Assembly: GCA_937868795.1 (NCBI GenBank)
Contig: CALMNM010000136.1
Coordinates: 1-35,336, forward strand
Length of the DNA: 35,336 nt
DNA from: an uncultured Acholeplasma sp.
GTDB taxonomy: Bacteria > Bacillota_I > Bacilli_A > Acholeplasmatales > Acholeplasmataceae
Direction of reading: 5' to 3'
Shown here piece by piece: positions 21,744-35,336 of this stretch. The notes beneath the pieces were generated by a model, which was not told the DNA's origin, did no database searches, and saw nothing but the letters and a program-made list of their open reading frames with translations. Position 1 is the first letter of the stretch. Each line of letters opens with the position of its first letter. The position numbers and the translations under genes are program-made.

Positions 21744-24485
21744 ATGGCAGGCAGCCGGCAGTTTTATCAAAATTCGAGTGATAACGAGAGCAGCACTGAT
21801 AGCGAGTCATATCAGGATAAGTGCACTCTCACTTTTACCCCGGATGCCAATTCTACATACCTCATCATAGCAACGGCAAATATCAATGATACCGATGGAA
21901 GTTTACTCCGGTTGTATGACGGTTCGACCGTATTGTTTGAGCACATCTATGAAGAATCGAAGGACAGCGATGATTACCCCGCAACCGGGGGGGCGGTGTA
22001 TGTATCGTTTGGAGATACCCCCGCAGAGATAACATACCGATTACAATACCACGCCCTATATAATGCCTATATCAAGTTTGCCCGGATCATCGCGATCAAG
22101 CTCACCGAAAATGACCAGATAGCCTCTGCAACATCTCGGACAACTACCACAAGCTCATCATGGCAGGATAAGGTAACAAAAACCTTTACGCCGGGCAGCG
22201 CGGGTGATTACCTGATCATTGGATCATGTACTCTTGATGGCAGTTCTAACAGCTACGACGTGCGGGCACAGATCGACGTGGACGGATCGGCGCAATATGG
22301 CTTGCTGAACGTCGAACCGGGCAGTTATAATGAAACCGCTCAAATCCCGTTCCTTTATTTCCAAAAAGTAACCCTCACGCAGGCAGAGCATACGATAAAA
22401 CTGCAATACAGCGCGGAAAGTCAAACCACGGGATGCCAATACGCTTATTTAACCATCCTCCGGCTCGATGATTTTCCAGCGGTTTATTCCGCAGAGCAGG
22501 ATACCGAACAATCGGCAACAACGCGGGCGCACAAGCTCACGCTCGATACCTCCGCAGCAGAGGCAACCGATCATCTCATCCTTGCCTCTTGCAGATGCAC
22601 CTCAAAGTCTACAAGTAACTCCGTTGGGGTTGGGTTGTATGAAGGCACAACCAACCGGGGTTTTCAGGATGAGGTTGAGATGCATGATACTTCCAATTAT
22701 CGGCATTATATGTGCGGGTTTTATACAGCCGCACCCGAGGCCACATATTATATCGATCTGTCCGGGGTTGGGGGAACGGGGTACGCCGATGATCTGCGGT
22801 TGTATGCCCTGCAACTAACTTCTTCAGAAGTTATTGTAGAATTGGTAGGAAGTACTATAGCAGAATCTAATTCATCTGGTCTTGTTGACCGACAACAAAA
22901 ACTTATTGGTTCGACGGGAGCAAGTGCCAGTTCCGAAGGAATAGTTGGTATAATTTTCAGTCTTTCTGGAACATCAGAATCATCATCAAATGCTCCAGAT
23001 GCTCTTCTTTCCCGAGACATGGCTCTCGCTGGTTCCTGTTCTGCTACCTCTTCAACTCCCGATACTGTTCTCTCTGTAGATTATGGTTTTGTTGGGGTTA
23101 CTGAAGCAATAAGCGAATCACAGGCACATTGTAGTGTTGAAAGAATTATTCAAAGTCTTGTTGGTGGAACGGCCTCAATGCAAGGGGCGCTTTCTGTTGA
23201 TTATGCTCTTTTTGGTCTTACTGAAGCGGAAGCATTTTCAGAAGGCGCTCTTGAAAAAATTGTCGGACTTGTTGGTTCTTGTTCAGCAGAATCAACGTCA
23301 GAAGGTACTCTTGACCGTCAGCAAAATTTTGCTGGTATAACAGAATCTATTTCATCATCAGAAGGTATTCTTGATCGCCAACAAAATTTTGTTGGAATAA
23401 CAGAATCTGTTTCTTCATCAGAAGGTTCTCTTGATACTGGTATTGGTTTAATTGGAACCTGTAGTGCTATTTCTTCATCAGAGGGTTCTCTCGAGGCTGG
23501 CATCGGTTTAATTGGAACCTGTAATGCAGAAGCATATTCAGAAGGTGTTATTTCTCTAACAGGAACCATTGAATTATCTGGTCTTACTGAAGTCGAATCA
23601 TCATCATCTGGTTCTCTTGATAGAAATCAAGGATTAGAAGGTTTTTGTGACCCAGTTTCCGAATCTACTGGTTTTCTATCTATTGATCGTGGATTGTCTG
23701 GAACCACTGCAGCTGAATTATCATCAGAAGGTTCTCTCTATGTCTTTAATGATGCTCTCGTTAGTGTGACGGAAGCGGAATCGACTTCATCTGGTACTCT
23801 CGTTGTAGAATGGGGATTGGCTGGAATAACCGAAGCAGGCCCGCAGTTTATAAATCCAAATGATGGAACTTTAACTCTCAATATTGGTCTTAAATCAACA
23901 ACAGAAACCGAATTGGCGACCACTGGAAGTCTGATTGTTGATTGGAGCCTCGCAGGACAAGCCGATGCTATATTTGAATCATCTGGCCTTTTCGATAAAC
24001 AACCCTCTCTTGCTGGCATTACCGAGGCTACAAGTTCATCAGAAGGAATAATAATTGTATTTATTCCCTTCGCGGGCATATCTGCAGCAATCAGTGATTC
24101 TACAGCATTTTTGAGTCGTATTATTGAAATCAGCGGTATAGCAGCAGGAGAATGTTCATCTGAAGGTTTCCTTTCACTATTAAATGGTCTCGTCGGTAGC
24201 ACAACAGCAGTATCGGGAGAAAGTGGTTTTCTCACTCTCGATCAGGCACTTGTCGGATATACAGATGCAGTTTCTGAATCTGACGGTGCTGTTGTTGTTA
24301 TTTATTCTCTTGCAGGTAAGACCGATGCAGTTTCTTCATCCGAAGCATTTCTTATAAAAATTGTTGAAATGATTGGAGCGGCTAATGCTGTTTCAGGATC
24401 GACAGGACAATTTGAAATTTTATTCCTTGTTGCATCGTGGGGAGAACCTAACGAATACATAGCACTTTTATGGAGTGAGGGATAA
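21744..24485 (+). CDS. Tail fibre / receptor-binding protein 1 (913 aa): three tandem ~115-aa N-terminal domains followed by ~25 copies of a ~20-aa periodic repeat (...SSEG.L.....L.G.TEA.S...)
   Basis: The triplicated KxTxTFTP...YLII...LQY domains and the periodic SSEG repeats are read in the translation. The N-terminal ~1.1 kb is GC-rich and the repeat region is AT-rich. Confidence 0.55.
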   Translation: MAGSRQFYQNSSDNESSTDSESYQDKCTLTFTPDANSTYLIIATANINDTDGSLLRLYDGSTVLFEHIYEESKDSDDYPATGGAVYVSFGDTPAEITYRLQYHALYNAYIKFARIIAIKLTENDQIASATSRTTTTSSSWQDKVTKTFTPGSAGDYLIIGSCTLDGSSNSYDVRAQIDVDGSAQYGLLNVEPGSYNETAQIPFLYFQKVTLTQAEHTIKLQYSAESQTTGCQYAYLTILRLDDFPAVYSAEQDTEQSATTRAHKLTLDTSAAEATDHLILASCRCTSKSTSNSVGVGLYEGTTNRGFQDEVEMHDTSNYRHYMCGFYTAAPEATYYIDLSGVGGTGYADDLRLYALQLTSSEVIVELVGSTIAESNSSGLVDRQQKLIGSTGASASSEGIVGIIFSLSGTSESSSNAPDALLSRDMALAGSCSATSSTPDTVLSVDYGFVGVTEAISESQAHCSVERIIQSLVGGTASMQGALSVDYALFGLTEAEAFSEGALEKIVGLVGSCSAESTSEGTLDRQQNFAGITESISSSEGILDRQQNFVGITESVSSSEGSLDTGIGLIGTCSAISSSEGSLEAGIGLIGTCNAEAYSEGVISLTGTIELSGLTEVESSSSGSLDRNQGLEGFCDPVSESTGFLSIDRGLSGTTAAELSSEGSLYVFNDALVSVTEAESTSSGTLVVEWGLAGITEAGPQFINPNDGTLTLNIGLKSTTETELATTGSLIVDWSLAGQADAIFESSGLFDKQPSLAGITEATSSSEGIIIVFIPFAGISAAISDSTAFLSRIIEISGIAAGECSSEGFLSLLNGLVGSTTAVSGESGFLTLDQALVGYTDAVSESDGAVVVIYSLAGKTDAVSSSEAFLIKIVEMIGAANAVSGSTGQFEILFLVASWGEPNEYIALLWSEG
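23301..23540 (+). repeat. Four tandem 60-nt coding repeat units (two near-identical pairs, about 85% and 80% identity) inside fibre gene 1
   Basis: Read directly: gaaggtactcttgaccgtcagcaaaattttgctggtataacagaatctatttcatcatca vs gaaggtattcttgatcgccaacaaaattttgttggaataacagaatctgtttcttcatca; then gaaggttctcttgatactggtattggtttaattggaacctgtagtgctatttcttcatca vs gagggttctctcgaggctggcatcggtttaattggaacctgtaatgcagaagcatattca. Confidence 0.7.
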
Positions 24486-27400
24486 TGGTTGAATATTATC
24501 TTCGATCAACAAGTTCGTATTTAAGTGATGGCGGTGCGTTTTCGAAGATAATGAGTACTTCATATACCTCGGAAACTTCTTTCCAGACGTCTGTTCCATT
24601 AATGTCAACGGTATATGGATACTTTTATACTGAAAGTCAGGTGCCATTAAATGGTAATTGGGGAACTAATTCTTTTAATGTTAATCTTTATTTATCTCCA
24701 GAAAGTGGAGTATTTCTTTACGCTAAAGTAAGAATCACCAGAGTTAATTATGCTGGAGTAGTCCAAGAATCTTCTGATTGGTCAGATGAACAACAAATTG
24801 CTTCAGAATCACAGTATTTATTTTCGTGTGATAATATTGAATGGACTTCTGGTAATTACAAAGATCGTATCCGTATTGATGTTGCATATAGAAATGCATC
24901 GGCGGCAACAGCATACAACATGGGAACTTACGTCGATGGAAGCAGTAATTATTCATATGTAGAATCTCCAATAAATTGTGAATATATCGTTTATAACCTT
25001 CGTTCAATAAATTCTGATTTGGGCGGAGGATCAGATTTTACAAAGATAATGAATAAGGAAACTGGTTCCAGAACAGCGGTAACATTTTACATGCCACAAG
25101 GAACGACACATAATAATTATTTTATTACTGAACAAAACGTTCCAGATAATGATAAATTCAATACAGGAGCAACAATAGTTTATTTCGAGGTAAGCTCAAA
25201 TGCATATTTATATACAAAAATGCGACTCCAGAGAATAAGTGCTTCTGGAACGGTTTTGGAATCTTCAAGTTATTCATCAGAACAACAAACTTCTTATGGG
25301 GGATATATTTTTGAAATTCCATCAAAAACATGGTCTGCTGGTAATGATACTGATAGAATACGACTTCATCTTGTAATGCGAGCAGTTGGTGGAAATGCTG
25401 GTGGTTCTGTTTATACCAATGAAGGATATCCAATAAGTCAGTTTTGTGCAACTTCTATTGAAGAAAGTCCATGTAATTTATCTGGAGTCACTGCAGCCGA
25501 ATCATCATCCGAAGGATATTTATCACTCAATCCTTCGATAATCAGGGGAATATGCGACGCTGTTTCCAACTCTACTGGTAATCTTGGTATAATTATACCA
25601 ATTGCAGGACAGACTAACGCTGTTGCTTCTTTAGAAGGTCATTTATCAACGATAATTCCATTATCTGGTTCATGTGCTGCCGTTTCAGAATCGACGGGAG
25701 CAATTGAAAATCAAACTTTCATTAATGGTCTTACCGAAGCAGAAGCGTCATCAGAAGGAACGTTATCGCTCATCAGGGCCATTGCTGGCGAAACTGTTGC
25801 TACCTCTGGTTCAACTGGTGTGCTCGATGTTCAGTCAGGACTTAAAGGTTCATTAATAGCGAACAGTTCATCGGAAGGTAATCTGACGTTTATAACTGGA
25901 TTATCTGGAACTACAGCGGCTGTATCTGGTTCATCGGGTGCTCTTTCTTTTGTGACTATGCTTCGTGTTCAGCGGAGAACAGAATTTACTGATTTTGCTG
26001 ATCACGTTTTTATTCCTTTTACTGATGGTAGTTTCCAAGATGATATCGATCTTGTCGGAGGAGAAACATACTGGTATCGGGCCTGTAAGGTTGTCGATCA
26101 AGTAAGTCATGATTGGTCAAATATAACTTATGCGACATACGCTTCCACATCAGTTTTAATTGAAGGCACTACATCGGCTATATCTTCATCTGAAGGTATT
26201 CTGACACTTGATGTTGGCCTTGCAGGGACTACAGCGGCTGTTAGTGCTTCTTCTGGTGCTCTGTCGGTAGAAATAAAATTATTAAGTCTTGTTGAAGCAG
26301 AATCTTCGTCAGAAGGTTCTCTCAATGTTGATTATGCTCTCGGTGGAGTGACGGTTGCTGAATCTCTTTCATTCGGTGCTCTCGAGGTAGGACAATTTCT
26401 TATCGGAGAAACAGAAACAGTTTCGTCGTCCAGTGGTTCATTAAGTGTTGATTATGCACTTGCTGGAATTGCATATTGTGGTAGTGAAGTTGTAAATCCA
26501 GAATTTGAATACGGGCTTGATGGGTGGGAATACGACGATCTTGGTGGATCAATAACTATTGAACCTTATGGTTCTGGAAATTGTGTTAAACTCGCTGCAA
26601 ATCCATCAGATTATGTTTATATCTATCAAGAATGTCCGAATAATACTAAATCCAATTTATTACTGGTTGATATTAATGTAACTGAAGTCAATTCTTTAGT
26701 TTATATAACCCTCGGATGTAATTTATGGACAGGAAGAACTCCACCATTTGATCCTCCGCCGTATTATAGTTATGCATTTCTTGGTTCCGTATCAATAACG
26801 TCACCGACTGCAGGAATGATTCGTGTTGCAATTCCATTTGATCCAATATTATTGGGATATCCAAATTCCTACTTTGATGTTTATGTTGACGTTGGAGATG
26901 CAACAGCATACGTCGATAAAATTATTCTAACAGAATCAGCGACCCTTGATTTACAATCTGGTCTTATTGGAACTACTGCAGCCGAAGCATCAAGTGAAGG
27001 TTTCCTCTCGCGTGATATTGCTATTGCGGGTCAGACGGACGCTATTTCTGGTTCTTCTGGTATTATCGTCGAGCTGGCTGATCTCGTTGGAGATTCATCG
27101 GCGGTAAGCTCATCCAGTGGTTCACTTTCAATCGATTGTGCGTTAATTGGAATCACAGCGGCTGAATCTACATCGGAAGGCGAATTAACACTCAATATCA
27201 GCCTTGCAGGTTCTTCAATTGCTGAATCTGCAACAGAAGGTAGGCTTGTTGGTGATGTTCCATTTGAAGGTTCTTGTTCTGCCGTTTCAAGTTCAGAAGG
27301 AACGATTACCTTTACTATTCATATTGCAGGAACGTGTGCGGCAGAAAGCAGTTCATCGGCGACCCTCTATAATTACTGCTTCCTTTCGGGCACTACTGCT

Positions 27401-27763
27401 GCTGTTTCATCGACTGCAGGCCACGTTTCAGTAATCAGATACCTGTATGGTCAGACTGATGCCGTTTCATTCAGTGAAGCTGACCTTGTTAATATTCAAA
27501 CTCTCGATATTGCAGGTTCATGCACGGCGATATCTGGTTCTGAAGGTATCCTTTACATTCAGACAGAAGGTAAAGAAATTGTCCTGTTTGATTCGACTAT
27601 TTCCCGAATTATCGAATTTGACAGCACAATTACAAGAGTAACAGAACCCACTTCAACCATAACTCTCCTATTATTATTCGATTCAACAATCGACACTCTC
27701 ATCGAAGATGAAAGTACGATTACCAGAATATTAGAATTTGATTCGGAGGTTCCAGATGACTGA
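24485..27763 (+). CDS. Tail fibre / receptor-binding protein 2 (1092 aa), paralogous to fibre 1. It has two tandem ~150-aa N-terminal domains, SSEG-type 20-aa repeats, an embedded CBM-like beta-sandwich domain (~26481-26930) and C-terminal 11-12-aa FDSTITRI-type repeats
   Basis: Start overlaps the upstream stop (ATAATG). The repeat families and the CBM4/9-like opening motif N-P-E-F-E-Y-G-L-D-G-W-E-Y are read in the translation. The whole gene is AT-rich. Confidence 0.55.
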   Translation: MVEYYLRSTSSYLSDGGAFSKIMSTSYTSETSFQTSVPLMSTVYGYFYTESQVPLNGNWGTNSFNVNLYLSPESGVFLYAKVRITRVNYAGVVQESSDWSDEQQIASESQYLFSCDNIEWTSGNYKDRIRIDVAYRNASAATAYNMGTYVDGSSNYSYVESPINCEYIVYNLRSINSDLGGGSDFTKIMNKETGSRTAVTFYMPQGTTHNNYFITEQNVPDNDKFNTGATIVYFEVSSNAYLYTKMRLQRISASGTVLESSSYSSEQQTSYGGYIFEIPSKTWSAGNDTDRIRLHLVMRAVGGNAGGSVYTNEGYPISQFCATSIEESPCNLSGVTAAESSSEGYLSLNPSIIRGICDAVSNSTGNLGIIIPIAGQTNAVASLEGHLSTIIPLSGSCAAVSESTGAIENQTFINGLTEAEASSEGTLSLIRAIAGETVATSGSTGVLDVQSGLKGSLIANSSSEGNLTFITGLSGTTAAVSGSSGALSFVTMLRVQRRTEFTDFADHVFIPFTDGSFQDDIDLVGGETYWYRACKVVDQVSHDWSNITYATYASTSVLIEGTTSAISSSEGILTLDVGLAGTTAAVSASSGALSVEIKLLSLVEAESSSEGSLNVDYALGGVTVAESLSFGALEVGQFLIGETETVSSSSGSLSVDYALAGIAYCGSEVVNPEFEYGLDGWEYDDLGGSITIEPYGSGNCVKLAANPSDYVYIYQECPNNTKSNLLLVDINVTEVNSLVYITLGCNLWTGRTPPFDPPPYYSYAFLGSVSITSPTAGMIRVAIPFDPILLGYPNSYFDVYVDVGDATAYVDKIILTESATLDLQSGLIGTTAAEASSEGFLSRDIAIAGQTDAISGSSGIIVELADLVGDSSAVSSSSGSLSIDCALIGITAAESTSEGELTLNISLAGSSIAESATEGRLVGDVPFEGSCSAVSSSEGTITFTIHIAGTCAAESSSSATLYNYCFLSGTTAAVSSTAGHVSVIRYLYGQTDAVSFSEADLVNIQTLDIAGSCTAISGSEGILYIQTEGKEIVLFDSTISRIIEFDSTITRVTEPTSTITLLLLFDSTIDTLIEDESTITRILEFDSEVPDD
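27584..27750 (+). repeat. C-terminal short coding repeats (about five 11-12-aa units FDSTISRIIE / FDSTITRVTE / ...STITLLLL / FDSTIDTLIED / ESTITRILE)
   Basis: Read in the translation of the last ~55 codons of fibre gene 2. Confidence 0.55.
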
Positions 27764-28069: not shown

Positions 28070-28095
28070 GAGGGTTATTTTCCCCTCAATTTTTG
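28070..28095. terminator. Candidate bidirectional intrinsic terminator at the convergence point (GAGGG-TTATTTTC-CCCTC followed by AATTTTT on +, preceded by A-run/T7)
   Basis: The 5-bp stem and flanking T-runs on both strands are read directly; the stem is short and overlaps the last SNF2 codons. Confidence 0.3.
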
Positions 28096-29757
28096 AAGGA
28101 TTTCTTTTCTCACATTTTCATCATTGATGGCCTGACCATCGACAACCTGATCAAATAAATCCTGCTTGGTGTCGAGAACTTCTTTTACTCTCTCTTCAAT
28201 ATCTTCGGCGATGAGATTAATGATAATCTTATCATTCTTGGCTCCAGTTCGATGAATACGATCAATTCTCTGGTTAAGTTTCGCAGGATTCCACGGGATA
28301 TCAAAATTAATGAGGATATCGACAAACTGCAGATTCATTCCATATCCGAAAATCTCGGTGGCAATAAGCACTTTGAATTTATCCTCTTTGAAATCCTCGA
28401 TAGCTTTGACTCGCTCATCAGCACTGCTATCACCTGTAAGAATCCTTATTCCAGTATTTCCTTCTCCTGTGAGGTAGCGATTCAGCATATGAGCGATGGT
28501 TTTGAACTGCGTGAAGATGAGCACTTTGTTATCGCCTGCCTCATCGAGAATTGTCGCTACCTCTTGGAATTTGTTATCGCAATGGTCAGGCGGAAGGGTG
28601 CGCGGAATGTAACCGCTTCCCTTCAACGAATTTACCATCGGAGAGGTTGAATCATAGAACATACGGAGATCGTCAGCAATTTCACGGAGAAGGATGAGTG
28701 CTCCGAGTGCGGCGGTATCGCTGGTCTGGTCGTTGTTTGCAAATCTGCGAATACCATCGATAACCTGATGTTGTAAAGGTGTCAGTGGTATGATGCGGTT
28801 TTGGATGATCTTTTCGGGGAGTTCAGCCACATCGCATTTCTTACGACGAATCATCAGCGGCGATACCCGCTGCAGGAAATCACTCAAATTCTTATAACCA
28901 ATAAGTTCATGATATCCATCAGGTTTTTGTTGCCACTCACAATATTGGCTCTTAAATTCTCGAGTTGTCATGAATTCAGGAGCGACAACGGATATGATGT
29001 TGAAAAAGTTGTTAAGACTGTTTTCGACGGGAGTTCCTGTCAGAGCGATGAATGCATGGACACGGGGCCGAAGCCAGTTCAGTTCACGCCATATTCTGGT
29101 CTTAACATTCTTGAACTTTGATGCTTCATCGGCGATAATAACAACATCGTTCCAGAACGTCTGAATATCTCTGGTATCACGGACAAAAGATTCATACGTC
29201 GTGAGAATAATGGCTGGATCACCTGATTGCATATAATAATCATATGCAGTGATTCTCGACGCACGGGTTCCTTTCTTTCCAGACAGGATAATGGAATCCT
29301 TATCGATGAAGCGTTTAATCTCACTCTGCCATTGAGGAAGCAGCGATGATGGTGCAAGAATGATAACCTTTCTTTTCTCCTGCATCGAAATATCGATGAG
29401 TGGCATCATCTGAACAGTCTTTCCAAGGCCCATCTCATCAGCGATAAGATAGAACTTCTTGTGGAGAGAGTAAAAAGCACCAACGGCCTGATAATCAAAG
29501 AGAAATGGATAGTCTTTCTTTATCGTGAGTGCTTCCTCGAAAACCATTTTTTCCGAGAGTTTCAGTTGTTCACGAATGGTCAATACTCTTTCACGCAGGT
29601 AGGGGATACCCTCAAGCCTTACAAGGTTGTCATTGGTAGCGGGAACAATCCACTGTTTCTTCCCTGCATCCCACGTTCTTCCAACGCAGGATTTCACTAC
29701 CGCAAGGTCACTATAGAAATTTTCTCCCTGTAAATTAACACGAAGTTCCTGTTTCAT
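28075..29757 (-). CDS. SNF2-family DNA-dependent ATPase/helicase (560 aa) with a ~90-aa N-terminal extra domain
   Basis: Motif I DEMGLGKT, motif II IIADEASKFKN, motif III LTGTPVEN and motif VI QRIDRIHRTG are all present in order; ATG with an AGGTGA SD. Confidence 0.9.
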   Translation of the reverse strand: MKQELRVNLQGENFYSDLAVVKSCVGRTWDAGKKQWIVPATNDNLVRLEGIPYLRERVLTIREQLKLSEKMVFEEALTIKKDYPFLFDYQAVGAFYSLHKKFYLIADEMGLGKTVQMMPLIDISMQEKRKVIILAPSSLLPQWQSEIKRFIDKDSIILSGKKGTRASRITAYDYYMQSGDPAIILTTYESFVRDTRDIQTFWNDVVIIADEASKFKNVKTRIWRELNWLRPRVHAFIALTGTPVENSLNNFFNIISVVAPEFMTTREFKSQYCEWQQKPDGYHELIGYKNLSDFLQRVSPLMIRRKKCDVAELPEKIIQNRIIPLTPLQHQVIDGIRRFANNDQTSDTAALGALILLREIADDLRMFYDSTSPMVNSLKGSGYIPRTLPPDHCDNKFQEVATILDEAGDNKVLIFTQFKTIAHMLNRYLTGEGNTGIRILTGDSSADERVKAIEDFKEDKFKVLIATEIFGYGMNLQFVDILINFDIPWNPAKLNQRIDRIHRTGAKNDKIIINLIAEDIEERVKEVLDTKQDLFDQVVDGQAINDENVRKEILQKLRGK

Positions 29758-29826
29758 AATTTATCACCTTTTTTTCAAAACAAAAAAATCCAATGACCGT
29801 TTTATTGGCCCTGTAGCAAAAGGGTA

Positions 29827-29856
29827 TTTGGGGATGGAGAATCATACAACCCCAAA
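29827..29856 (-). terminator. Hairpin (TTTGGGG - 16 nt loop - CCCCAAA) in the 140-bp gap between the thymidylate kinase stop and the SNF2 start; candidate terminator or processing structure for the upstream minus-strand operon
   Basis: The 7-bp perfect stem is read directly. On the minus strand it is followed 5 nt later by TTTTG. Confidence 0.3.
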
Positions 29857-29897
29857 GGACTTTTGCCTCTGCTGCGAATCCTACCCCTATGCGCGGC

Positions 29898-30491
29898 CTA
29901 TGCTGTGAGTGCACCAAATACGCGATTGGCAACAATCTCTTCTGATGCATTCGCGTGAACGATCAAACATCCCTCCCACCATTCTGAATCACGAAGATAT
30001 ATCTCCTGAACCTTTAAAAGCTTTGGGATATACGTGGCATCCATTCCATCGTGACCATTGGCAAATCTCTTTTCAAGAGTTGCCCTATCAGCGACGAGAA
30101 GTATGACATAATCAGGCTGATACGAGTAATTGTGCATCATGCACATATATTCGTAGGCCGAATCGATGGAACACTGCAGGTGCTGGGCGATTTCGACGGT
30201 CTGATAAGCAATCCTCGATTGAAGATATCTATCGGTGATAATCAGATCGGTTCTCACATAAGGATCAATGACTTCACGGAGATGAAGCTGATGATCTTTC
30301 ATGAAGGTGAATAGCCGAGAGAACGGGTCTGGATCATTGAGAAGTTTGTATTTCTCTTCCCGTGTCATCTTATACGGTTCCTTCGTAAAGATAATGTTTG
30401 GATATTCTTCTTCAACGGTAAACATTGTTTGGAGGTTGGAAATCAACGTTGATTTTCCTACCCCGTCAACCCCTTCAATAGCAACTAACAA
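29898..30491 (-). CDS. tmk: Thymidylate (dTMP) kinase-like nucleotide kinase (197 aa)
   Basis: P-loop IEGVDGVGKST and the DRY motif (ITDRYLQS) characteristic of thymidylate kinases. No in-frame ATG exists; the start is TTG, 1 nt after the upstream stop, with AAGGAG ~12 nt upstream. Confidence 0.65.
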   Translation of the reverse strand: MLVAIEGVDGVGKSTLISNLQTMFTVEEEYPNIIFTKEPYKMTREEKYKLLNDPDPFSRLFTFMKDHQLHLREVIDPYVRTDLIITDRYLQSRIAYQTVEIAQHLQCSIDSAYEYMCMMHNYSYQPDYVILLVADRATLEKRFANGHDGMDATYIPKLLKVQEIYLRDSEWWEGCLIVHANASEEIVANRVFGALTA

Positions 30492-30492
30492 A

Positions 30493-31164
30493 TTAGCACA
30501 TCTCCTTTAGCCATTTTCTCGTCGTATGTGTGACTTTGACTTTAAGACAATTGTTCCTTGCATCATCAATAAAATCACCAAAACGTGGATACGTTTCCAT
30601 GATTTCTTTGGCCTTCTTTTCGCCAATACCCGCCATTTGACAGTAATGGACGAAATTAGGGTCAAGATCAGTAACTTTCTTTTTCTTGAATTTTGTTTCA
30701 AGTTCGGAAGCCGTTCTTATTTCACGGTGTTCGACGAACTTTCGATAGAACAGAAATATTCCATCGATGAGTTGAGTGTCGTTTGCAAATTCGACGATAT
30801 GTACGAATGGATATTTGGCTGAAATTGATGCCTTCAACCCCTTCGTATGTTCAGTAGTCCAACCCTTGATGTAATTGTTTGAGAAGTATATGTTTTCGAA
30901 CTTTCCAGATATAAAGAGGTAGGATAAAGGGAAGTTCGAATTCATGCGCTTCAGTTGGTTATCGAGGCGACCAGAACGCTTGGAGAGGATTAAATCGCTG
31001 ACAGTCTTTCTCTCGATGCAAATGTCCGATTCGAGATACTCGTCTCTCGTCCAGATATAATCCCCCGTATCCAATTCCTGAACTTCGTGAGGAATGTTCT
31101 GCTTGTTCGCTGCTTTGGTCACCCGCGCAACCATATCCTGTTCTCGTCCGTCGATCAATAGCAT
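30493..31164 (-). CDS. XPF/Mus81-type ERCC4 nuclease, short form with C-terminal HhH2 (about 223 aa)
   Basis: ERCC4 signature TGDYIW...ICIERKTVSDLILS (GDxn-ERK-x3-D) plus a helix-hairpin-helix pair (MAGIGEKKAKEIMETYP). Start set at ATG 31164, 5 nt after the primase stop; the track start at 31272 would overlap the primase gene by ~100 nt. Confidence 0.7.
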   Translation of the reverse strand: MLLIDGREQDMVARVTKAANKQNIPHEVQELDTGDYIWTRDEYLESDICIERKTVSDLILSKRSGRLDNQLKRMNSNFPLSYLFISGKFENIYFSNNYIKGWTTEHTKGLKASISAKYPFVHIVEFANDTQLIDGIFLFYRKFVEHREIRTASELETKFKKKKVTDLDPNFVHYCQMAGIGEKKAKEIMETYPRFGDFIDDARNNCLKVKVTHTTRKWLKEMC

Positions 31165-31169
31165 CCATC

Positions 31170-32186
31170 TCACCTGTAAATTGCGAGAATGTGAGAGCCT
31201 GAATCTCCCTTTTTGCAGTGAGCACAAAGTCGAGAACTTCTGCAGAAACCTTCTCGTCGTAAAGACTCGCAAGAAGGGAATAAGGATTCATCTCGCTCAT
31301 AGATGTGTTTTGCTTGCCGCTCCTCTCGTATGCAATGAACAGCCTCGGAGACTCCTCTCTTTTGTGCGGTGAGATACCGAGTAATAATATCACAGGCGTT
31401 CCCGTATAATATTCCCGAATCTCGCAGGTAAACAATAAGTAGGAATCTACCCCGCCATCCGACGCGAGTATGAGAGGCATTGGCGAGCAATGAGGCGATG
31501 CAAGGAGGCATTTGTGACAGTATTTCGTCAGAATCAATCTGCGCTTTCACCTCTTCGGTTACTTCAACCTCATAAGATGATTCTTCTGAACTATCGAAGC
31601 CAGATACATCGAATAATTCTTCTCCATTGATTTCGAATTCAAATCTCTGTTCTTTTGCAAGATTGGAATGATATTCGAAACCTTTGATGATCTCATTAGC
31701 AAAAATCGGGATGCAATATCGCTGACGTTTTGTATTCCAAGTGTTCGGAATCGTTGCAACGCGGGCAATATCACCGAAAATTGCTTTATCAAAATGACAA
31801 CAATACTCTTTCAAAAAGTAATCATGTACATTTGTCAGACAAGCTTTCTTATTCTTCAGATTTTCGTACCCCTTCGTGAAGAGGTAAACGTGGTAGCCGC
31901 CACCAGAAAAAAGCAATAAATGTTTAAGATTTGCTTTTCGAAGGTGGAATGTAAAAGCCATCGTATTTTCGAAGGCTTCTGGCCCATCAAAATCAAAGAA
32001 TATCTTGTCGAGATCGAGAGAAATTTTATCGAAGTGTTGACTTCCTGTGAAATTGTAAACAGAAGAAAACAATCTTACTTTGCCATTTAAACGATTGATT
32101 GTGGAGTAAAACTCCTTTCTATCAACCGTTTTTCTGTACGGATATGCGACCTGTCTTGGAAATGTGGAATAGAGCAGATCGTACAA
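31170..32186 (-). CDS. Archaeo-eukaryotic-type primase / primase-polymerase (AEP superfamily) (338 aa)
   Basis: AEP motifs: motif I FFDFDGPE (hhhDhD) and motif II SGGGYHVYL (sGxGxHhh). TTG start with AAGGA 8 nt upstream, immediately after the Cas4-like stop. The Cys/His-rich C-terminal region is a possible Zn-binding domain. Confidence 0.6.
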   Translation of the reverse strand: MYDLLYSTFPRQVAYPYRKTVDRKEFYSTINRLNGKVRLFSSVYNFTGSQHFDKISLDLDKIFFDFDGPEAFENTMAFTFHLRKANLKHLLLFSGGGYHVYLFTKGYENLKNKKACLTNVHDYFLKEYCCHFDKAIFGDIARVATIPNTWNTKRQRYCIPIFANEIIKGFEYHSNLAKEQRFEFEINGEELFDVSGFDSSEESSYEVEVTEEVKAQIDSDEILSQMPPCIASLLANASHTRVGWRGRFLLIVYLRDSGILYGNACDIITRYLTAQKRGVSEAVHCIREERQAKHIYERDESLFPSCESLRREGFCRSSRLCAHCKKGDSGSHILAIYR

Positions 32187-32191
32187 ATCAA

Positions 32192-32923
32192 TCAGTCCTT
32201 AATAATGTCATCGGTGTAGCCGTCACAGAGATTAATGAATTTACAATATGAACAGAGACGTGACCGACTTCTCGGAAACATTGCTCCGTCGTTACTCTTC
32301 ATATTCTCCATGTGAGCCAGCATATCAGCATAATGTTTGTCATATTCGTCTTCGTTAACGTCGATTACGAAAGTTTTCTTTGGAAATTGTGTGAAGAACA
32401 TCCCGATTTTCGATGCATTGATACCAAGACACCGACGAGCAAGTATGACATAGACATAAAGCTCGAAAATGTAATCGTCCATTTTCGGTTTATAGAATTT
32501 GCCTGTCTTGTAATCGATAATCCAATATTCACCATCTTTAAGATAAATGGCATCAATATACCCCGATAAATCAAGTTCATCATCCTCAACCCTTTGCTCA
32601 TGAAGTTCTGCCCGACCAAGACCATACTTATCAAGAATCGTGAAGAGATTTGCGAGATTCTTTTCACAGAACTGCACTCCATCGTCAGTCAAATTGATGG
32701 CATCCATATGGATATCGATAACAGATTCATCAGCATTGGGGTCATTAAATAATTCCAGAACTTTATGCACGACGTTACCGTTCTGCACCTGATGGGAAGG
32801 ACTTTCCCTAATTGACCGTCCAAGCTCTGTCCGATTCTGGAAATAGTACTGTCTCGGGCAAGTCTTGAACGTGTTAATCTTTGACTTGCTAAACGTCCTT
32901 CTTTTTACTACTTGTTCGCTCAA
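32192..32923 (-). CDS. Cas4 / RecB-family PD-(D/E)XK exonuclease with Fe-S cluster cysteines (about 243 aa)
   Basis: N-terminal Cys (TCPRQYYF), GYIDAIYL, IIDYKTGK and C-terminal C-x2-C-x5-C (CSYCKFINLC). TTG start (32923 preferred for its 6-nt spacing to GGAGGAGG). Confidence 0.7.
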   Translation of the reverse strand: MSEQVVKRRTFSKSKINTFKTCPRQYYFQNRTELGRSIRESPSHQVQNGNVVHKVLELFNDPNADESVIDIHMDAINLTDDGVQFCEKNLANLFTILDKYGLGRAELHEQRVEDDELDLSGYIDAIYLKDGEYWIIDYKTGKFYKPKMDDYIFELYVYVILARRCLGINASKIGMFFTQFPKKTFVIDVNEDEYDKHYADMLAHMENMKSNDGAMFPRSRSRLCSYCKFINLCDGYTDDIIKD

Positions 32924-32949
32924 CAACCTCCTCCGTGGTTAATTTTAAC

Positions 32950-32961
32950 TCCCCGAAGGGA
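32950..32961 (-). other. UUCG-tetraloop hairpin (minus strand UCCC-UUCG-GGGA) in the Zn-finger / Cas4 spacer
   Basis: Read directly from the reverse complement of tccccgaaggga. Confidence 0.4.
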
Positions 32962-33005
32962 AGTCGGAAAGGGGAATCGAACCCCTACTTATTTCCTTTT
33001 CCGAC
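32962..33005 (-). other. tRNA-like acceptor-stem / T-arm minihelix (not a full tRNA): 7-bp acceptor-like stem GUCGGAA/UUCCGAC, 12-nt linker, T-arm AGGGG-UUCGAUU-CCCCU, then a discriminator
   Basis: Hand-folded from the reverse complement. The T-loop UUCGAUU matches the T-Psi-C-R-A-N-Y consensus and the closing pair is G-C. The 5-prime strand overlaps the last 7 codons of the Zn-finger gene and the stop TAG lies in the T-stem. No D arm or anticodon arm can be formed. Confidence 0.45.
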
Positions 33006-33299
33006 AGATATTTTGGGAGCATTTTTGCTCCCCCTTGGCCTACCTCTCGGTTTGCCTGTTTTAATATCCGCTTTTTTATTAACGGCATTTTGTATTCTTT
33101 CCATTTTCATCTCTTCGTTACGAGTGATTTTCTTGGCAATTAATTGATAATTCTTTGGCATTGGGACAGTTTGTGCTCTTTTTGTACCGATATCAACAGG
33201 CCACCCACACCACGGACAAATTGCCCATTCATGGTCAGGCATTTTATCTTTCATATTTCCAAAATATTTGGAACAGTGGGTGCACTTGTATTCCCTCAT
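32985..33299 (-). CDS. Small zinc-ribbon protein with a C-terminal AT-hook-like motif (104 aa)
   Basis: C2C2 (CTHC...CPWC) at the N-terminus and GKPRGRPRGSKN (R-G-R-P core) at the C-terminus. The ATG abuts the RNR stop. Confidence 0.5.
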   Translation of the reverse strand: MREYKCTHCSKYFGNMKDKMPDHEWAICPWCGWPVDIGTKRAQTVPMPKNYQLIAKKITRNEEMKMERIQNAVNKKADIKTGKPRGRPRGSKNAPKISVGKGNK

Positions 33300-35330
33300 T
33301 TAGCACCTCGACCATCCACAAGCAGGACACTTTCTGCAACCCTCTTCCATAGCAATCACTTCACCACATTCAGGACACCTTGGAACATGAGTCAATTCTT
33401 TCGTCGGCAATGAGTCCATTATGATACAATTATCTTCAATCATATCACGACAAAGAATGGCCTCTTTTTCACCATATTCAAAGGTGGTGCGCTCTTCGAG
33501 AACTTTCCCGATAATGTTGGCACATGACCGTCCTGCAGACTTTGGATTTTTCATAGCAACAGGACATTCAACAGATTTGAGCGTCCTGACAATATCGGTT
33601 GCAGGGACGTTCCACCGTAATCCCAACGATATCATTAATCCAAGCGCCTCACTCATGGCGCTACAACCGCCTCCACGATTGTTAATGATGGTTTCATAAG
33701 GGTAATCGTCCATCTGATTAACGGTAATCATCAGTTTACCACATCCCGAACGCAATTTGTCGGTTGTGCCTGTGAGAACCCGTGGACGCTTCGGGAGAAG
33801 TCTTACTTCACCATCGGTAGAAACAAACGGTTGATGATGATTAATAACGCGATTAGAAGCTGACGTCGGAAGTTCTTCTTCTGACTTTACCTCTTTTTCT
33901 TTCAGAGTTAAAACTTCATCCTTACGAGAGCCTGAACGATAGAGAGTGACACCTTTACACTTTTTCTGCCATGCATAAATAACAGCCGCAGCAACGTCCT
34001 CTTTCGTAGCGCTAAATGGAAGATTGACCGTTTTGCTAACCCCAGCATCACAATAACGCTGGAAAATTGCCATGAGATCGATCTGCGTTCTCCAAAATAC
34101 ATCGAAGGTTGTTACGAGTAATCGCTGATCTTCTTCAGTAGTGTATGGAGCATCCCGAAGTGTGCCGTGTTCATAAACATACTGAATAAGCTCATTGTAT
34201 TGGCTTTCAGATAATCTATTCTTAAAGCGACTTTCAAAAATCGGATGAACAACGAAGTATTCTCGCCCAACAGTATTCTTGCGTTTCAGGACGTAAGAAA
34301 ATACAGGTTCAATTCCAGATGAACAATCAGCAAGGAACGATATAGAACCCGTCGGAGCGATACACGTCAGGGCCACGTTGCGACGCATATATCCACCATA
34401 CTTTGTATAATATGGTGAATATCCTCGAGTCTCGGCAAGTCTGGCAGAATGAATATCAGCAACCTTTTGAATAAATTTCATTACCTCTTCAGCCACGTCA
34501 TAAGAATCTTCGTGTCCATAGGGGATTCCCATTTTGAGTAACATATCGGCGAAACCCATGACACCAAGACCAATTTTTCTGGTAAATTTGGATGCTTCGT
34601 CAATTTGAGGAATCGGGTAGTTATTCATATCAATGACATTATCGAGGAATTCGACAGCATCTTTGATAATCTTTTCAAGATAATCCCAATCAATTCCACC
34701 GTATTCATCAACAAAATTTACAAGGTTAATGCTTCCAAGGTTGCAGGATTCAAAGGGGTAGAGTGGTTGCTCACCGCAGGGGTTGGTTGCAGTTATCGGG
34801 CCAAGCTTCGGTGTTGCAGCATCAGTATCGATGTTAATCCTGTCATAAAACAGGAATGATGGTTCACCGTTTGTCCACTGGTTTTCGATGATTTTATTGA
34901 ACAGGTCTTTGTTCTTGCAGGTGTATCCCTGTCCAATAACATCATTCATAAACTCATCATCAACCATCACCGAGAAATTGAAATTGGCAAGTTTCCCTTC
35001 GACGTGTTTTGCAGTAATGAACTTCTCAATATCGGGATGATCATATCGTAGGATGCCCATATTGGCTCCACGTCGGCGACCACCCTGTTTTACGGTCTCG
35101 GTAGCGGCATTGAATACTTCCATGAAAGAGAGTGGGCCTGACGCTACCCCTTTGGTAGAGCCAACGGTGGAGCCTGCTGACCGAAGGTTGGAGAAATTAA
35201 ATCCAGTTCCTCCGCCTGTTTTGTGAATGAGAGCCGTCCACTTGATAGCGTCGAAAATTTCCTCCATCGAATCACCAACAGGAAGAACAAAGCAAGCAGA
35301 AAGTTGACCAATTTCTGTGCCTGCATTCAT
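33300..35330 (-). CDS. nrdJ: Ribonucleotide reductase catalytic subunit, class II (adenosylcobalamin-dependent, NrdJ-like); N-terminus at or beyond the window edge
   Basis: Active-site region NPCGEQPLYPFESCNLGSINL and a C-terminal Cys-rich zinc ribbon (CPECGEV...CRKCPACG). At 676+ aa it is long; the first Met is 6 nt from the window end, so the true start may lie outside. Confidence 0.8.
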   Translation of the reverse strand: MNAGTEIGQLSACFVLPVGDSMEEIFDAIKWTALIHKTGGGTGFNFSNLRSAGSTVGSTKGVASGPLSFMEVFNAATETVKQGGRRRGANMGILRYDHPDIEKFITAKHVEGKLANFNFSVMVDDEFMNDVIGQGYTCKNKDLFNKIIENQWTNGEPSFLFYDRINIDTDAATPKLGPITATNPCGEQPLYPFESCNLGSINLVNFVDEYGGIDWDYLEKIIKDAVEFLDNVIDMNNYPIPQIDEASKFTRKIGLGVMGFADMLLKMGIPYGHEDSYDVAEEVMKFIQKVADIHSARLAETRGYSPYYTKYGGYMRRNVALTCIAPTGSISFLADCSSGIEPVFSYVLKRKNTVGREYFVVHPIFESRFKNRLSESQYNELIQYVYEHGTLRDAPYTTEEDQRLLVTTFDVFWRTQIDLMAIFQRYCDAGVSKTVNLPFSATKEDVAAAVIYAWQKKCKGVTLYRSGSRKDEVLTLKEKEVKSEEELPTSASNRVINHHQPFVSTDGEVRLLPKRPRVLTGTTDKLRSGCGKLMITVNQMDDYPYETIINNRGGGCSAMSEALGLMISLGLRWNVPATDIVRTLKSVECPVAMKNPKSAGRSCANIIGKVLEERTTFEYGEKEAILCRDMIEDNCIIMDSLPTKELTHVPRCPECGEVIAMEEGCRKCPACGWSRC

Positions 35331-35336
35331 GAGTGT

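What the first reader, a model, noticed from the sequence alone, without database searches (positions are those of the whole stretch)
28075..35330. Replication/repair module with an archaeal-eukaryal flavour (short-form XPF/ERCC4+HhH2, AEP primase, Cas4-like nuclease, AT-hook protein) in a virus that also uses strong bacterial-style SD sites
The minus-strand operon encodes, in order, a class-II-like RNR, a Zn-ribbon/AT-hook protein, a Cas4-like nuclease, an AEP primase, an ERCC4 nuclease with HhH2, thymidylate kinase and (after a gap) an SNF2 ATPase. The ERCC4 nuclease with only a nuclease domain plus HhH2 matches the short crenarchaeal/thaumarchaeal XPF architecture. An Hjc-like PD-(D/E)XK nuclease (3143..3658) and an encapsulin-like capsid protein are also present.

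Taken together this gene set fits an archaeal tailed virus. However GGAGG-type SD sites precede almost every gene, and GC is about 42%. Host affinity is therefore open. ERCC4-family nucleases are rare in characterised prokaryotic viruses.
Basis: partly seen in the sequence, partly recalled or inferred. Interest (0 to 1): 0.55.

Follow-up and report, generated by a model that had tools for sequence, protein, structure and literature searches.

The report
Archaeal-type replication module of uncultured tailed virus
This is the DNA replication and repair gene block of an uncultured tailed virus whose only cultured relative infects a methane-producing archaeon, so it most likely infects archaea; it adds a member to a known kind of virus and is not a new kind of system.

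Summary
Every gene call in the finding holds. On the minus strand, in order: class II (B12) ribonucleotide reductase (cut by the contig end), Zn-ribbon/AT-hook protein, Cas4-like Fe-S nuclease, AEP primase, ERCC4 nuclease, dTMP kinase, a 140-bp gap, SNF2 ATPase.

New detail:
- The primase is a single-chain PriS-like domain fused to a four-cysteine PriL-CTD-like domain.
- The ERCC4 protein folds like the short Aeropyrum XPF. Only its first helix-hairpin-helix is canonical, and it has no PCNA-binding motif.

Evidence on host:
- Among 50,697 phage records, the primase and the ERCC4 nuclease each hit only Methanobacterium virus PhiF1. There the same Cas4-like/primase/ERCC4 trio sits in the same order.
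- The trio recurs in at least 20 uncultured viral contigs, next to either a PolB or a DnaE-type polymerase.
- Several relatives carry a methanogen-type thymidylate synthase.
- "Bacterial-style" SD sites are no objection, because PhiF1 uses the same motifs.

The host is not proven. Metagenome bin labels conflict, one small virion protein hits only bacterial phages, and no CRISPR or provirus link was obtainable.

Verdict: archaeal, probably methanogen-infecting, tailed virus. It is a new member of a known kind and moderately interesting.

The parts
33300..35336 (-). Class II (adenosylcobalamin-dependent) ribonucleotide reductase NrdJ with a C-terminal TSCPD domain and Zn-ribbon. The 5' end is cut by the contig end, with about 85 residues missing.
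   Evidence: Pfam Ribonuc_red_lgC 2e-116 and TSCPD 5e-12. NCBIfam TIGR02504 at 586 bits against a cutoff of 400, aligned from model position 85. Relatives are 741-756 aa.
32985..33299 (-). Small Zn-ribbon protein with a C-terminal AT-hook (KPRGRPRGSK). Predicted DNA-binding accessory protein.
   Evidence: Zn_ribbon_8 3.6e-4, below cutoff. The AT-hook is conserved, and a second one is present, in the 92% relative. That relative has a weak sub-threshold OapC match. The more distant clade L001 has an unrelated gene in this position.
32935..32984 (-). Conserved intergenic double hairpin. Hairpin 1 has a 5-bp stem and a TTCGATT loop, resembling a tRNA T-arm. Hairpin 2 has a TTCG loop. A GGAGGAGG SD for the Cas4-like gene follows.
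   Evidence: Sequence. Conserved in five distinct relatives. Three of the five pairs of hairpin 1 show compensatory changes. No tRNA and no Rfam family.
32192..32926 (-). Cas4-like / RecB-family PD-(D/E)XK nuclease with four cysteines (predicted Fe-S cluster). Predicted 5'-3' end-processing exonuclease.
   Evidence: PDDEXK_1 5.8e-23, Cas_Cas4 5e-8. PHROG exonuclease families. Hits 272 phage records including PhiF1. First gene of the conserved trio.
31170..32186 (-). Single-chain archaeo-eukaryotic primase. Residues 1-200 form a PriS-like catalytic domain, and residues about 209-338 form a PriL-CTD-like four-cysteine domain.
   Evidence: Invariant D65, D67, S94, G95, G97, H99, D133 and C229, C306, C315, C321. 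AF2 pLDDT 88. Foldseek top hits are almost all AEP-fold enzymes. The C-terminal profile hits Sulfolobus PriL at 1.8e-5 with all four cysteines aligned, and the top 12 hits are all PriL. The best viral structural match is a 312-aa protein, probably PhiF1 ORF55, followed by an uncultured archaeal virus primase.
30493..31164 (-). Short XPF/Hef-type ERCC4 nuclease with a C-terminal helical domain. One HhH is canonical (GIGEKKAKEI) and the second is degenerate.
   Evidence: PF02732 1.8e-15. G34-D35...E51-R52-K53...D57 are invariant. PDB profile: Pyrococcus Hef 3e-15, Aeropyrum XPF 3e-12 across nuclease plus HhH. AF2 pLDDT 78, with full-length Aeropyrum XPF as top Foldseek hit. NCBIfam Hef and Arch_Xpf score far below their cutoffs.
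29898..30491 (-). Thymidylate (dTMP) kinase.
   Evidence: PF02223 6e-19. TIGR00041 at 67.7 bits, below the equivalog cutoff.
29758..29897 (-). Intergenic gap with a T-run (TTTTTTTGTTTT) and an AAGGTGAT SD before the SNF2 gene. Possibly an operon boundary.
   Evidence: Sequence. Conserved in the L005 upstream listing. No sigma-70-like site here and no enrichment of such sites overall.
28075..29757 (-). SNF2-family ATPase/helicase.
   Evidence: SNF2-rel_dom 4e-34, Helicase_C 9e-26. PHROG 62 DNA helicase 1e-89. Present after the trio in several relatives.
3143..3658 (-). Candidate PD-(D/E)XK nuclease with Hjc-like motif spacing (E20...D48...D61-V-K63). The assignment is tentative.
   Evidence: No Pfam or PHROG hit. 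E20, D48, D61, V62, K63 are invariant in four homologues. The PDB profile puts S. tokodaii ST1444 second, at E = 1, with the motifs aligned.
5772..6617 (+). HK97-fold, encapsulin-like major capsid protein. Context showing that the element is a tailed virus.
   Evidence: Linocin_M18 1.7e-24. Tail tube PF18906 and tape measure PF10145 lie downstream.

Best explanation
The region is the replication, nucleotide-supply and recombination arm of an uncultured tailed dsDNA virus (class Caudoviricetes). Its genome is about 73 kb and its host is most likely an archaeon, probably a methanogen or a related tetrahydromethanopterin-using euryarchaeon in anaerobic digesters.

Shown here:
- The gene identities.
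- The PriS-like/PriL-CTD-like fusion architecture of the primase.
- The short-XPF fold and intact GDxnERKx3D site of the ERCC4 nuclease.
- A Cas4-like/primase/ERCC4 trio conserved in PhiF1 and in at least 20 uncultured viral contigs, whichever polymerase type (PolB or DnaE) accompanies it.

Inferred mechanism:
1. NrdJ and dTMP kinase feed dNTP pools. Relatives add dCTP deaminase and, in some, thymidylate synthase.
2. The single-chain primase makes primers. The virus's own PolB extends them with an RFC-like clamp loader. Both genes lie just beyond the contig end in 89-94% identical relatives.
3. The Cas4-like exonuclease resects ends for recombination-dependent replication.
4. The XPF-like nuclease, probably as a homodimer, cuts 3' flaps, stalled forks and nicked junctions, so that branched concatemers can be restarted and then packaged.
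5. The SNF2 ATPase remodels forks.
6. The Zn-ribbon/AT-hook protein binds AT-rich DNA.
For: - Gene identities.
- Primase architecture.
- ERCC4 active-site motif and fold.
- The primase and ERCC4 each hit only PhiF1 (host Methanothermobacter) among 50,697 phage records.
- PhiF1 ORF56/55/54 form the same trio in the same order.
- The trio is conserved in GTDB (Genome Taxonomy Database) and IMG/VR loci, with a PolB or a DnaE-type polymerase upstream.
- Relatives that share the trio, RNR, TMK, tail genes and a PolB 54-62% identical to that of the window's clade carry thymidylate synthases. These score 150-214 bits on the methanogen-type model TIGR03283, against at most 59 bits on bacterial ThyA models.
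- One relative, L041, also has a short PeiP-like match.
- The RFC-like protein is closest to Archaeoglobus and Pyrococcus RFC small subunits (2e-42), then T4 gp44 (1e-29), then bacterial gamma (1e-7).
- The PolB's best PDB sequence hit is 6e-39, against 3.5e-29 for the first roughly 900-aa polymerase chains. I recognise the former as archaeal PolBs and the latter as RB69 polymerase, but the table names neither.
- Sigma-70-type promoters and hairpin terminators are not enriched.
- PhiF1 uses the same SD style.
- No peptidoglycan hydrolase domain appears among the genes seen in the window or in about 41 kb of the 72.8-kb relative.
Against: - There is no direct host link: no CRISPR spacer match, no tRNA or att site, no integrated copy.
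- Bin labels of contigs carrying the primase conflict: Bacteroidetes (69% identity), Bacillota, Bathyarchaeia, "uncultured archaeon", Patescibacteria, Woesearchaeota.
- The Gp80-like virion protein (20896-21300) hits 358 phage records, and every organism and host tallied or listed is bacterial, although 19 further organism names were not shown.
- The capsid protein's best, weak hits are Brevundimonas phages, ahead of a Halorubrum virus.
- Cas4-like nucleases, SNF2 ATPases and AEP primases also occur in bacterial phages (PMC5862659).
- The methanogen-type ThyA is in relatives, not in this window, and most of those copies score just under the curated cutoff.
- No pseudomurein endoisopeptidase was found in the window.
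- All mechanistic roles are inferred from homology.
Confidence: 0.7

Rival explanations
1. The virus is a bacteriophage, for example of Bacteroidota or Bacillota in anaerobic digesters. Its replication genes merely look archaeo-eukaryotic, as do the PolB, clamp loader and clamp of T4-like phages and the AEP primases that are widespread in bacterial mobile elements.
For: - Contigs with the same primase are binned with a Bacteroidetes MAG (69% identity) and a Bacillota MAG.
- PhiF1's own annotation notes similarity of ORF55 to a Flammeovirgaceae protein.
- The Gp80-like protein hits 358 records, and all organisms and hosts tallied or listed are bacterial phages, at up to 45% identity.
- The capsid protein's best hits are Brevundimonas phages.
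- The Cas4-like nuclease hits Campylobacter and Mycobacterium phages.
- A Salinibacter phage primase is a structural match at 2.7e-6.
- Strong SD usage.
Against: - The binned contigs are purely viral fragments or whole viral genomes, with no bacterial flanks.
- Labels span six phyla in two domains, so binning is unreliable here.
- Two family-specific proteins hit only a methanogen virus in a database that is overwhelmingly bacterial.
- Relatives encode methanogen-type ThyA.
- No endolysin-type peptidoglycan hydrolase domain was seen.
- No enrichment of sigma-70 promoters or intrinsic terminators.
Confidence: 0.2
2. The virus infects an archaeon that is not a methanogen, such as Bathyarchaeia, DPANN/Woesearchaeota or an Asgard lineage. 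The link to PhiF1 would then reflect an old shared replication cassette, not host relatedness.
For: - Distant members of the primase family sit on 69-70 kb viral contigs binned with Bathyarchaeia and an unclassified archaeon, and on a Woesearchaeota-bin contig.
- ERCC4-like nucleases are reported in Asgard and nanohaloarchaeal viruses.
- Identity to PhiF1 is only 28-30%.
Against: - Those bins hold the distant members (23-37% identity). The closer clade, with a PolB 54-62% identical to that of the window's clade, carries methanogen-type ThyA.
- Sample codes of the closest relatives point to sludge or digester communities, where methanogens dominate the archaea. This is my inference from the MAG names and the digester code scheme in PMC7382037.
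Confidence: 0.15

Closest known systems
Methanobacterium virus PhiF1 (MK994522), ORF56/ORF55/ORF54
   Same: Same three adjacent genes in the same order: PD-(D/E)XK (Cas4-like) nuclease, 312-aa AEP protein, ERCC4-type nuclease. It is the only phage-database hit for the primase (29.5% identity, 2e-28) and for the ERCC4 nuclease (28.4%, 2e-7). Genome size is similar (74 kb against 72.8 kb for the close relative), and the SD style is the same.
   Different: PhiF1 pairs the trio with a DnaE-type polymerase, a class III RNR, its own thymidylate synthase and a pseudomurein endoisopeptidase. This lineage has PolB, an RFC-like loader, class II RNR, TMK and SNF2. PhiF1's ERCC4 protein stops after the first HhH. 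No structural gene similarity was detected. ORF55 is annotated only as hypothetical.
Short archaeal XPF (Aeropyrum pernix XPF, PDB 2BGW/2BHN) and the Pyrococcus Hef nuclease domain (1J22)
   Same: ERCC4 nuclease domain with an intact GDxnERKx3D motif, followed by a helical HhH-type domain and no helicase domain. These are the top sequence-profile and Foldseek matches.
   Different: About 17-25% identity. NCBIfam Arch_Xpf and Hef equivalog scores are far below their cutoffs (36-39 bits against 300-610). The second hairpin lacks the G-h-G motif and has a long loop. No PIP-like C-terminal motif is seen, by inspection.
Fused PriS-PriL primases such as PolpTN2 of Thermococcus plasmid pTN2 (PMC3973330, PMC5862659)
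   Same: One polypeptide combines an AEP catalytic domain with a PriL-like four-cysteine (4Fe-4S) domain and is encoded by a mobile element.
   Different: This protein is much smaller (338 aa). It keeps the motif II histidine, which is described as not conserved in PolpTN2. It shows no PriCT-1 or winged-helix domain, and it is viral, not plasmid-borne. No activity has been tested.
Metagenomic archaeal tailed viruses with self-encoded replisomes (magroviruses, ANME-1 Nakonvirales, Asgard viruses)
   Same: Head-tailed genomes with PolB, replication accessory genes, nucleotide-metabolism genes and, in some, ERCC4-like nucleases. The ANME-1 head-tailed viruses are 70-80 kb. The second-best structural match of the primase is from an uncultured archaeal virus.
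   Different: No detectable sequence match to the phage-collection genomes of those groups at the thresholds used. The habitat differs (apparently sludge or digester) and the likely host group differs.

Membership tests
XPF/Mus81/Hef (ERCC4) structure-specific nucleases | ERCC4 nuclease domain above the Pfam gathering score | tested here: met
   PF02732 at 57.5 bits against a cutoff of 24, E = 1.8e-15.
XPF/Mus81/Hef (ERCC4) structure-specific nucleases | Catalytic signature GDXnERKX3D | tested here: met
   G34-D35...E51-R52-K53-x3-D57 are invariant in 9 sequences including PhiF1.
Short archaeal XPF (nuclease + (HhH)2, no helicase) | No N-terminal helicase domain; total length about 200-250 aa | tested here: met
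   223 aa, with the ERCC4 domain starting at residue 4.
Short archaeal XPF (nuclease + (HhH)2, no helicase) | C-terminal tandem helix-hairpin-helix (HhH)2 domain | tested here: inconclusive
   The first HhH is canonical (GIGEKKAKEI) and aligns to the first HhH of Aeropyrum XPF. The AF2 model has helices 169-177, 182-191, 195-203 and 213-222, and full-length XPF chains are the top Foldseek hits. The second hairpin has no G-h-G and a 9-residue loop. PhiF1's homologue lacks it entirely.
Short archaeal XPF (nuclease + (HhH)2, no helicase) | C-terminal PCNA-interaction motif, as in crenarchaeal XPF (feature recalled from the literature) | tested here: not met
   No Qxx[LIM]xx[FY][FY]-type motif in the sequence or at the C terminus (...TRKWLKEMC), by inspection of the translation. 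The 240-aa protein next to the RFC gene in relatives gave no PCNA match.
Short archaeal XPF (nuclease + (HhH)2, no helicase) | Scores as an equivalog of cellular archaeal Xpf or Hef | tested here: not met
   NF040956 at 36.5 bits against 300, and NF010337 at 39.1 against 610.
Archaeo-eukaryotic primase (AEP) superfamily | Catalytic motifs I (DxD), II (sGxGxH) and III (D) | tested here: met
   D65, D67, S94, G95, G97, H99 and D133 are invariant across 19-24 homologues.
Archaeo-eukaryotic primase (AEP) superfamily | AEP catalytic fold | tested here: met
   AF2 pLDDT 88. The top Foldseek PDB hits (prob about 1.0) are almost all Prim-Pol, LigD polymerase, PriS, human Pri1 or RepB'.
PriS proper (cellular replicative primase small subunit) | Match to a curated PriS family model | tested here: not met
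   No Pfam or NCBIfam PriS hit. PDB profile hits to archaeal PriS are only E = 0.03-0.07.
PriL C-terminal Fe-S domain | Homology to PriL-CTD with four cluster-binding cysteines | tested here: met
   The C-terminal profile hits Sulfolobus PriL residues 213-298 at 1.8e-5 with all four cysteines aligned, and the top 12 hits are all PriL. C229, C306, C315 and C321 are invariant. Pfam PF04104 is sub-threshold at 19 bits against 22.4. Cluster binding itself was not tested.
Cas4/RecB-like PD-(D/E)XK nucleases | PD-(D/E)XK domain plus the C...CxxCx5C cysteine pattern | tested here: met
   PDDEXK_1 at 82.5 bits and Cas_Cas4 at 33.6 bits, both above cutoff. Cysteines at 23, 226, 229 and 235 in the translation. 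No cas genes are nearby, so it is not part of a CRISPR-Cas system.
Hjc Holliday-junction resolvase (protein at 3143-3658) | Statistically significant similarity to Hjc | tested here: not met
   No Pfam or PHROG hit. The match to S. tokodaii ST1444 is E = 1.
Hjc Holliday-junction resolvase (protein at 3143-3658) | E...D...(E/D)xK catalytic motif with Hjc-like spacing | tested here: inconclusive
   E20, D48, D61 and K63 are invariant in 4 homologues and align to the ST1444 motifs. The protein is 171 aa with about 100 extra C-terminal residues. No structure model was made.
Archaeal tailed viruses (Caudoviricetes with archaeal hosts) | Tailed-virus morphogenetic genes (HK97-fold capsid, tail tube, tape measure) | tested here: met
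   Linocin_M18, Phage_tube_2 and PhageMin_Tail.
Archaeal tailed viruses (Caudoviricetes with archaeal hosts) | Family-specific genes shared with an isolated archaeal virus | tested here: met
   The primase and ERCC4 hit only PhiF1, with a syntenic trio.
Archaeal tailed viruses (Caudoviricetes with archaeal hosts) | Direct host link (CRISPR spacer match, provirus in an archaeal chromosome, or isolation) | not testable with these tools
   The GTDB scan found only free viral contigs with conflicting bin labels.

The most novel reading that the evidence does not exclude
The Cas4-like nuclease, PriS/PriL-CTD fusion primase and short XPF may form one portable three-gene cassette for priming and branch processing. 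It would work with whichever polymerase a virus carries (PolB or DnaE) and would mark a broad, undescribed assemblage of methanogen and other archaeal tailed viruses. The XPF-like enzyme would act without PCNA. The conserved T-arm-like hairpin upstream of the cassette would be a tRNA-mimic processing or regulatory signal for it.
Probability: 0.2. Interest if true: 0.6.

Novelty: new member of a known kind. Interest (0 to 1): 0.4.

Why it matters
Few viruses of methanogens are known, although methanogens drive biogas production and methane emission. This contig and its roughly 73-kb relatives add a lineage with a largely self-sufficient, archaeal-type replisome.

The analysis assigns a function to PhiF1 ORF55, now annotated as hypothetical: it is a fused PriS/PriL-type primase. 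It also shows that this primase travels with a Cas4-like and an XPF-like nuclease across many uncultured viruses. That gives a compact marker set for recognising archaeal viruses in metagenomes, where binning labels are misleading. It also offers small, tractable enzymes (a 338-aa primase and a 223-aa XPF) for biochemistry.

The finding does not reveal a new kind of system.

Tried and rejected
- Nucleotide search of 25 kb against phage genomes found nothing.
- Tail tube and the 1543-aa tail protein gave no protein hits in phages.
- Exact-protein look-ups for the window's own proteins were not on record, so the source sample of the window stays unknown.
- Literature search for the accession and sample numbers found nothing, and a search for TIGR03283 found nothing.
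- The archaeal TATA motif TTTATATA occurs 5 times against 1.6 expected. One copy sits 38 nt upstream of the start of the structural operon, but only that one is intergenic. A crude survey of upstream regions in 15 loci gave no clear positional signal. I treat this as inconclusive and do not use it as evidence.
- The candidate sliding clamp next to the RFC gene in relatives (L005:458-1180) has no Pfam or PDB support.
- tblastn of the relatives' ThyA against phages is uninformative, giving generic ThyA hits. Only the HMM comparison discriminates.
- The AlphaFold-database fold search that would have given organism names was unavailable.
- GTDB bin labels were considered as host evidence and rejected. 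The contigs are free viral sequences, and the labels span two domains.
- A prophage reading was rejected: no integrase, no tRNA and no cellular flanks were found.

Full report
**Observation.** The window is a complete 35,336-bp contig. An identical primase is recorded on a contig of exactly that length.

- Pfam confirms the SNF2 ATPase, dTMP kinase, ERCC4 nuclease, Cas4-like PD-(D/E)XK nuclease and RNR. PHROGs agrees.
- The RNR is class II NrdJ. It is truncated by the contig end, because the alignment starts at model position 85. Relatives are 741-756 aa.
- The Zn-ribbon protein carries a KPRGRPRGSK AT-hook, which is conserved in the 92%-identity relative.
- SD-like motifs precede 26 of 30 starts, against a 16% background.
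- The rest of the window is a siphovirus-type structural module: an encapsulin-like HK97-fold capsid protein, tail tube, tape measure and large tail proteins.

**The primase.** Pfam sees no AEP domain, but four lines of evidence establish one.

- Nineteen homologues share invariant D65xD67, S94-G-x-G-x-H99 and D133.
- The five best PDB profile hits are all archaeal PriS, at marginal E-values of 0.03-0.07.
- An AlphaFold2 (AF2) model has pLDDT 88.
- Its top Foldseek matches in the PDB are almost all AEP-fold enzymes.

Residues about 209-338 form a separate helical domain with four invariant cysteines. A profile of that domain alone hits the Fe-S C-terminal domain of Sulfolobus PriL at 1.8e-5 with all four cysteines aligned. 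The next eleven hits are all PriL.

The protein is therefore a compact single-chain fusion of a PriS-like domain and a PriL-CTD-like domain. Such fusions are known, for example PolpTN2. This one is much smaller and is viral.

**The ERCC4 nuclease.** The GDxnERKx3D signature is invariant.

- The best solved relatives are the Pyrococcus Hef nuclease domain (3e-15) and Aeropyrum pernix XPF (3e-12). The XPF alignment runs through the first HhH.
- The AF2 model has pLDDT 78. Its top Foldseek matches are full-length Aeropyrum XPF chains.
- Only the first HhH (GIGEKKAKEI) is canonical. The second has a long loop without glycines.
- PhiF1's homologue ends after the first HhH.
- No PIP-type motif is visible.
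- Curated archaeal Xpf and Hef models score far below their cutoffs.

It works like a short archaeal XPF, but it is a divergent viral branch and not an orthologue.

**The Hjc-like protein (3143-3658).** It has no family hit. It does have invariant E20...D48...D61-V-K63. A non-significant (E = 1) but motif-consistent alignment places Sulfolobus tokodaii ST1444 second of 177,635 PDB sequences. My recollection is that ST1444 is the Hjc resolvase.

**Relatives and context.** Close homologues exist only in metagenomes.

- A 92%-identity relative lies on a 72.8-kb contig, and others lie on contigs of 37-75 kb.
- Just upstream of the RNR they carry a PolB, a dCTP deaminase and an RFC-like clamp loader.
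- The RFC-like protein is closest to Archaeoglobus and Pyrococcus RFC small subunits (2e-42), then eukaryotic RFC, T4 gp44 (1e-29) and bacterial gamma (1e-7).
- The PolB's best PDB sequence hit is 6e-39, against 3.5e-29 for the first roughly 900-aa polymerase chains. I recognise the former as archaeal PolBs and the latter as RB69 polymerase, but the table names neither.

**The link to PhiF1.**

- Against 50,697 phage records, the primase and the ERCC4 nuclease each hit exactly one record: Methanobacterium virus PhiF1, host Methanothermobacter.
- In PhiF1, ORF56 (PD-(D/E)XK), ORF55 ("hypothetical") and ORF54 (ERCC4) are adjacent in the same order.
- A scan of IMG/VR found 27 loci and a scan of GTDB (Genome Taxonomy Database) genomes found 7. 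tblastn mapping shows the trio in at least 20 of them, preceded by either PolB or a DnaE-type polymerase.

The trio is thus a conserved cassette that is independent of polymerase type.

**Host.** Evidence for an archaeal host, probably a methanogen:

- The exclusive PhiF1 link described above.
- A sister clade shares the trio, RNR, TMK, two tail genes and a PolB 54-62% identical to that of the window's clade. It encodes thymidylate synthases scoring 150-214 bits on the methanogen-type model TIGR03283, against at most 59 bits on bacterial ThyA models. By my recollection of that model's description, the family is specific to methanogens, which use tetrahydromethanopterin.
- One relative has a PeiP-like segment.
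- Sigma-70 promoters and hairpin terminators are not enriched.
- No peptidoglycan hydrolase was seen.

The SD argument is void. PhiF1 shows GGAGG/GAGGTGA motifs before 14 of 23 annotated starts.

Evidence against:

- Bin labels of contigs with this primase include Bacteroidetes and Bacillota as well as Bathyarchaeia, an unclassified archaeon, Patescibacteria and Woesearchaeota. All are free viral contigs, so the labels carry little weight.
- The Gp80-like virion protein hits 358 phage records, and all organisms and hosts tallied or listed are bacterial.
- The capsid protein's weak best hits are Brevundimonas phages.

I put an archaeal host at about 0.75-0.8. Within that, a methanogen or close relative is about two in three.

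**Mechanism (inferred).**

1. NrdJ and TMK supply dNTPs. Relatives add Dcd and, in some, ThyA.
2. The fused primase initiates synthesis for the viral PolB with its RFC-like loader.
3. The Cas4-like exonuclease resects ends.
4. The XPF-like nuclease cuts 3' flaps, forks and nicked junctions during recombination-dependent replication and before packaging.
5. The SNF2 ATPase remodels forks.
6. The candidate Hjc-like nuclease, next to the head genes, would resolve remaining junctions.

None of these activities has been tested.

**Novelty.** ERCC4 nucleases are already annotated in PhiF1 and reported in Asgard and nanohaloarchaeal viruses. Archaeal tailed viruses of 70-80 kb with a PolB are known. 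Fused PriS-PriL primases are known.

What is new here is modest:

- A new uncultured lineage.
- Recognition of PhiF1 ORF55 as a fused primase.
- The conserved three-gene cassette.
- A conserved T-arm-like hairpin upstream of the Cas4-like gene.

Hence "new member of a known kind", with interest 0.4.

Noticed in passing
window 32935-32984 (minus strand): The 58-nt spacer before the Cas4-like gene holds two conserved hairpins. The first mimics a tRNA T-arm, with a 5-bp stem and a TTCGATT loop. Three of its pairs show compensatory changes across five relatives. The second has a TTCG loop. No tRNA or Rfam family is detected, and the element is absent from the more distant clade.
   Followed up: partly
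L007:5603-8803 and L034:3674-6871 (relatives): The class II RNR of these relatives is 1065-1066 aa because it carries an intein with a LAGLIDADG homing endonuclease (Intein_splicing, LAGLIDADG_3). The window's copy has no intein.
   Followed up: yes
window 21744-24485 and 24485-27763: The two large tail-fibre-like proteins are internally repetitive, with serine/alanine-rich units of the type SSSEGxL...G.TAAVS.SxG. They are far more divergent between close relatives (30-75% identity) than their neighbours (about 85-95%). This suggests host-range determinants.
   Followed up: partly
window 4000-7000: A GC-rich island (53% against about 40% elsewhere) covers the scaffold/protease-like gene, the 305-aa gene at 4841-5758 and the capsid gene. 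It creates long spurious antisense ORFs such as 5778-6896.
   Followed up: no
window 1-1075; L014:13079-16786: The left end of the window, and about 3.7 kb beyond it in the 72.8-kb relative, have no called genes and only short ORFs. No Rfam match and only trivial tandem repeats were found. This may be a regulatory or origin region.
   Followed up: partly
window 20896-21300: A small Gp80-like virion protein (PF23140, 6e-45) has 358 tblastn hits, and all tallied or listed are phages of Proteobacteria and Actinobacteria, at up to 45% identity. It is the strongest single gene-level link to bacterial phages.
   Followed up: yes
L004 (PhiF1) 11935-12873; L033, L041, L043: PhiF1 ORF55, annotated as a hypothetical protein, is the fused AEP/PriL-CTD primase. 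In PhiF1 and three IMG/VR contigs the same nuclease-primase-nuclease trio follows a DnaE-type polymerase instead of a PolB, so the polymerases have been exchanged around a fixed cassette.
   Followed up: partly
L005:8798-9190 (homologue of window 32985-33299): The longer homologue of the Zn-ribbon/AT-hook protein gives a sub-threshold match to the haloarchaeal origin-associated protein OapC (19.1 bits against a cutoff of 23). It also has a second AT-hook.
   Followed up: no
L009 and L010 (distant relatives binned with archaeal MAGs): These roughly 70-kb viral contigs carry 7-deazaguanine pathway genes (GTP cyclohydrolase I, QueC, radical-SAM), glycosyltransferases and, in L009, a FEN1/XPG-type nuclease. 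This suggests DNA hypermodification in that branch.
   Followed up: partly
window 3782-3789: A perfect TTTATATA sits 38 nt upstream of the ATG (3827) that starts the structural operon. It is conserved in two relatives, which are nearly identical there. TTTATATA occurs 5 times in the window against 1.6 expected, all on the plus strand.
   Followed up: partly
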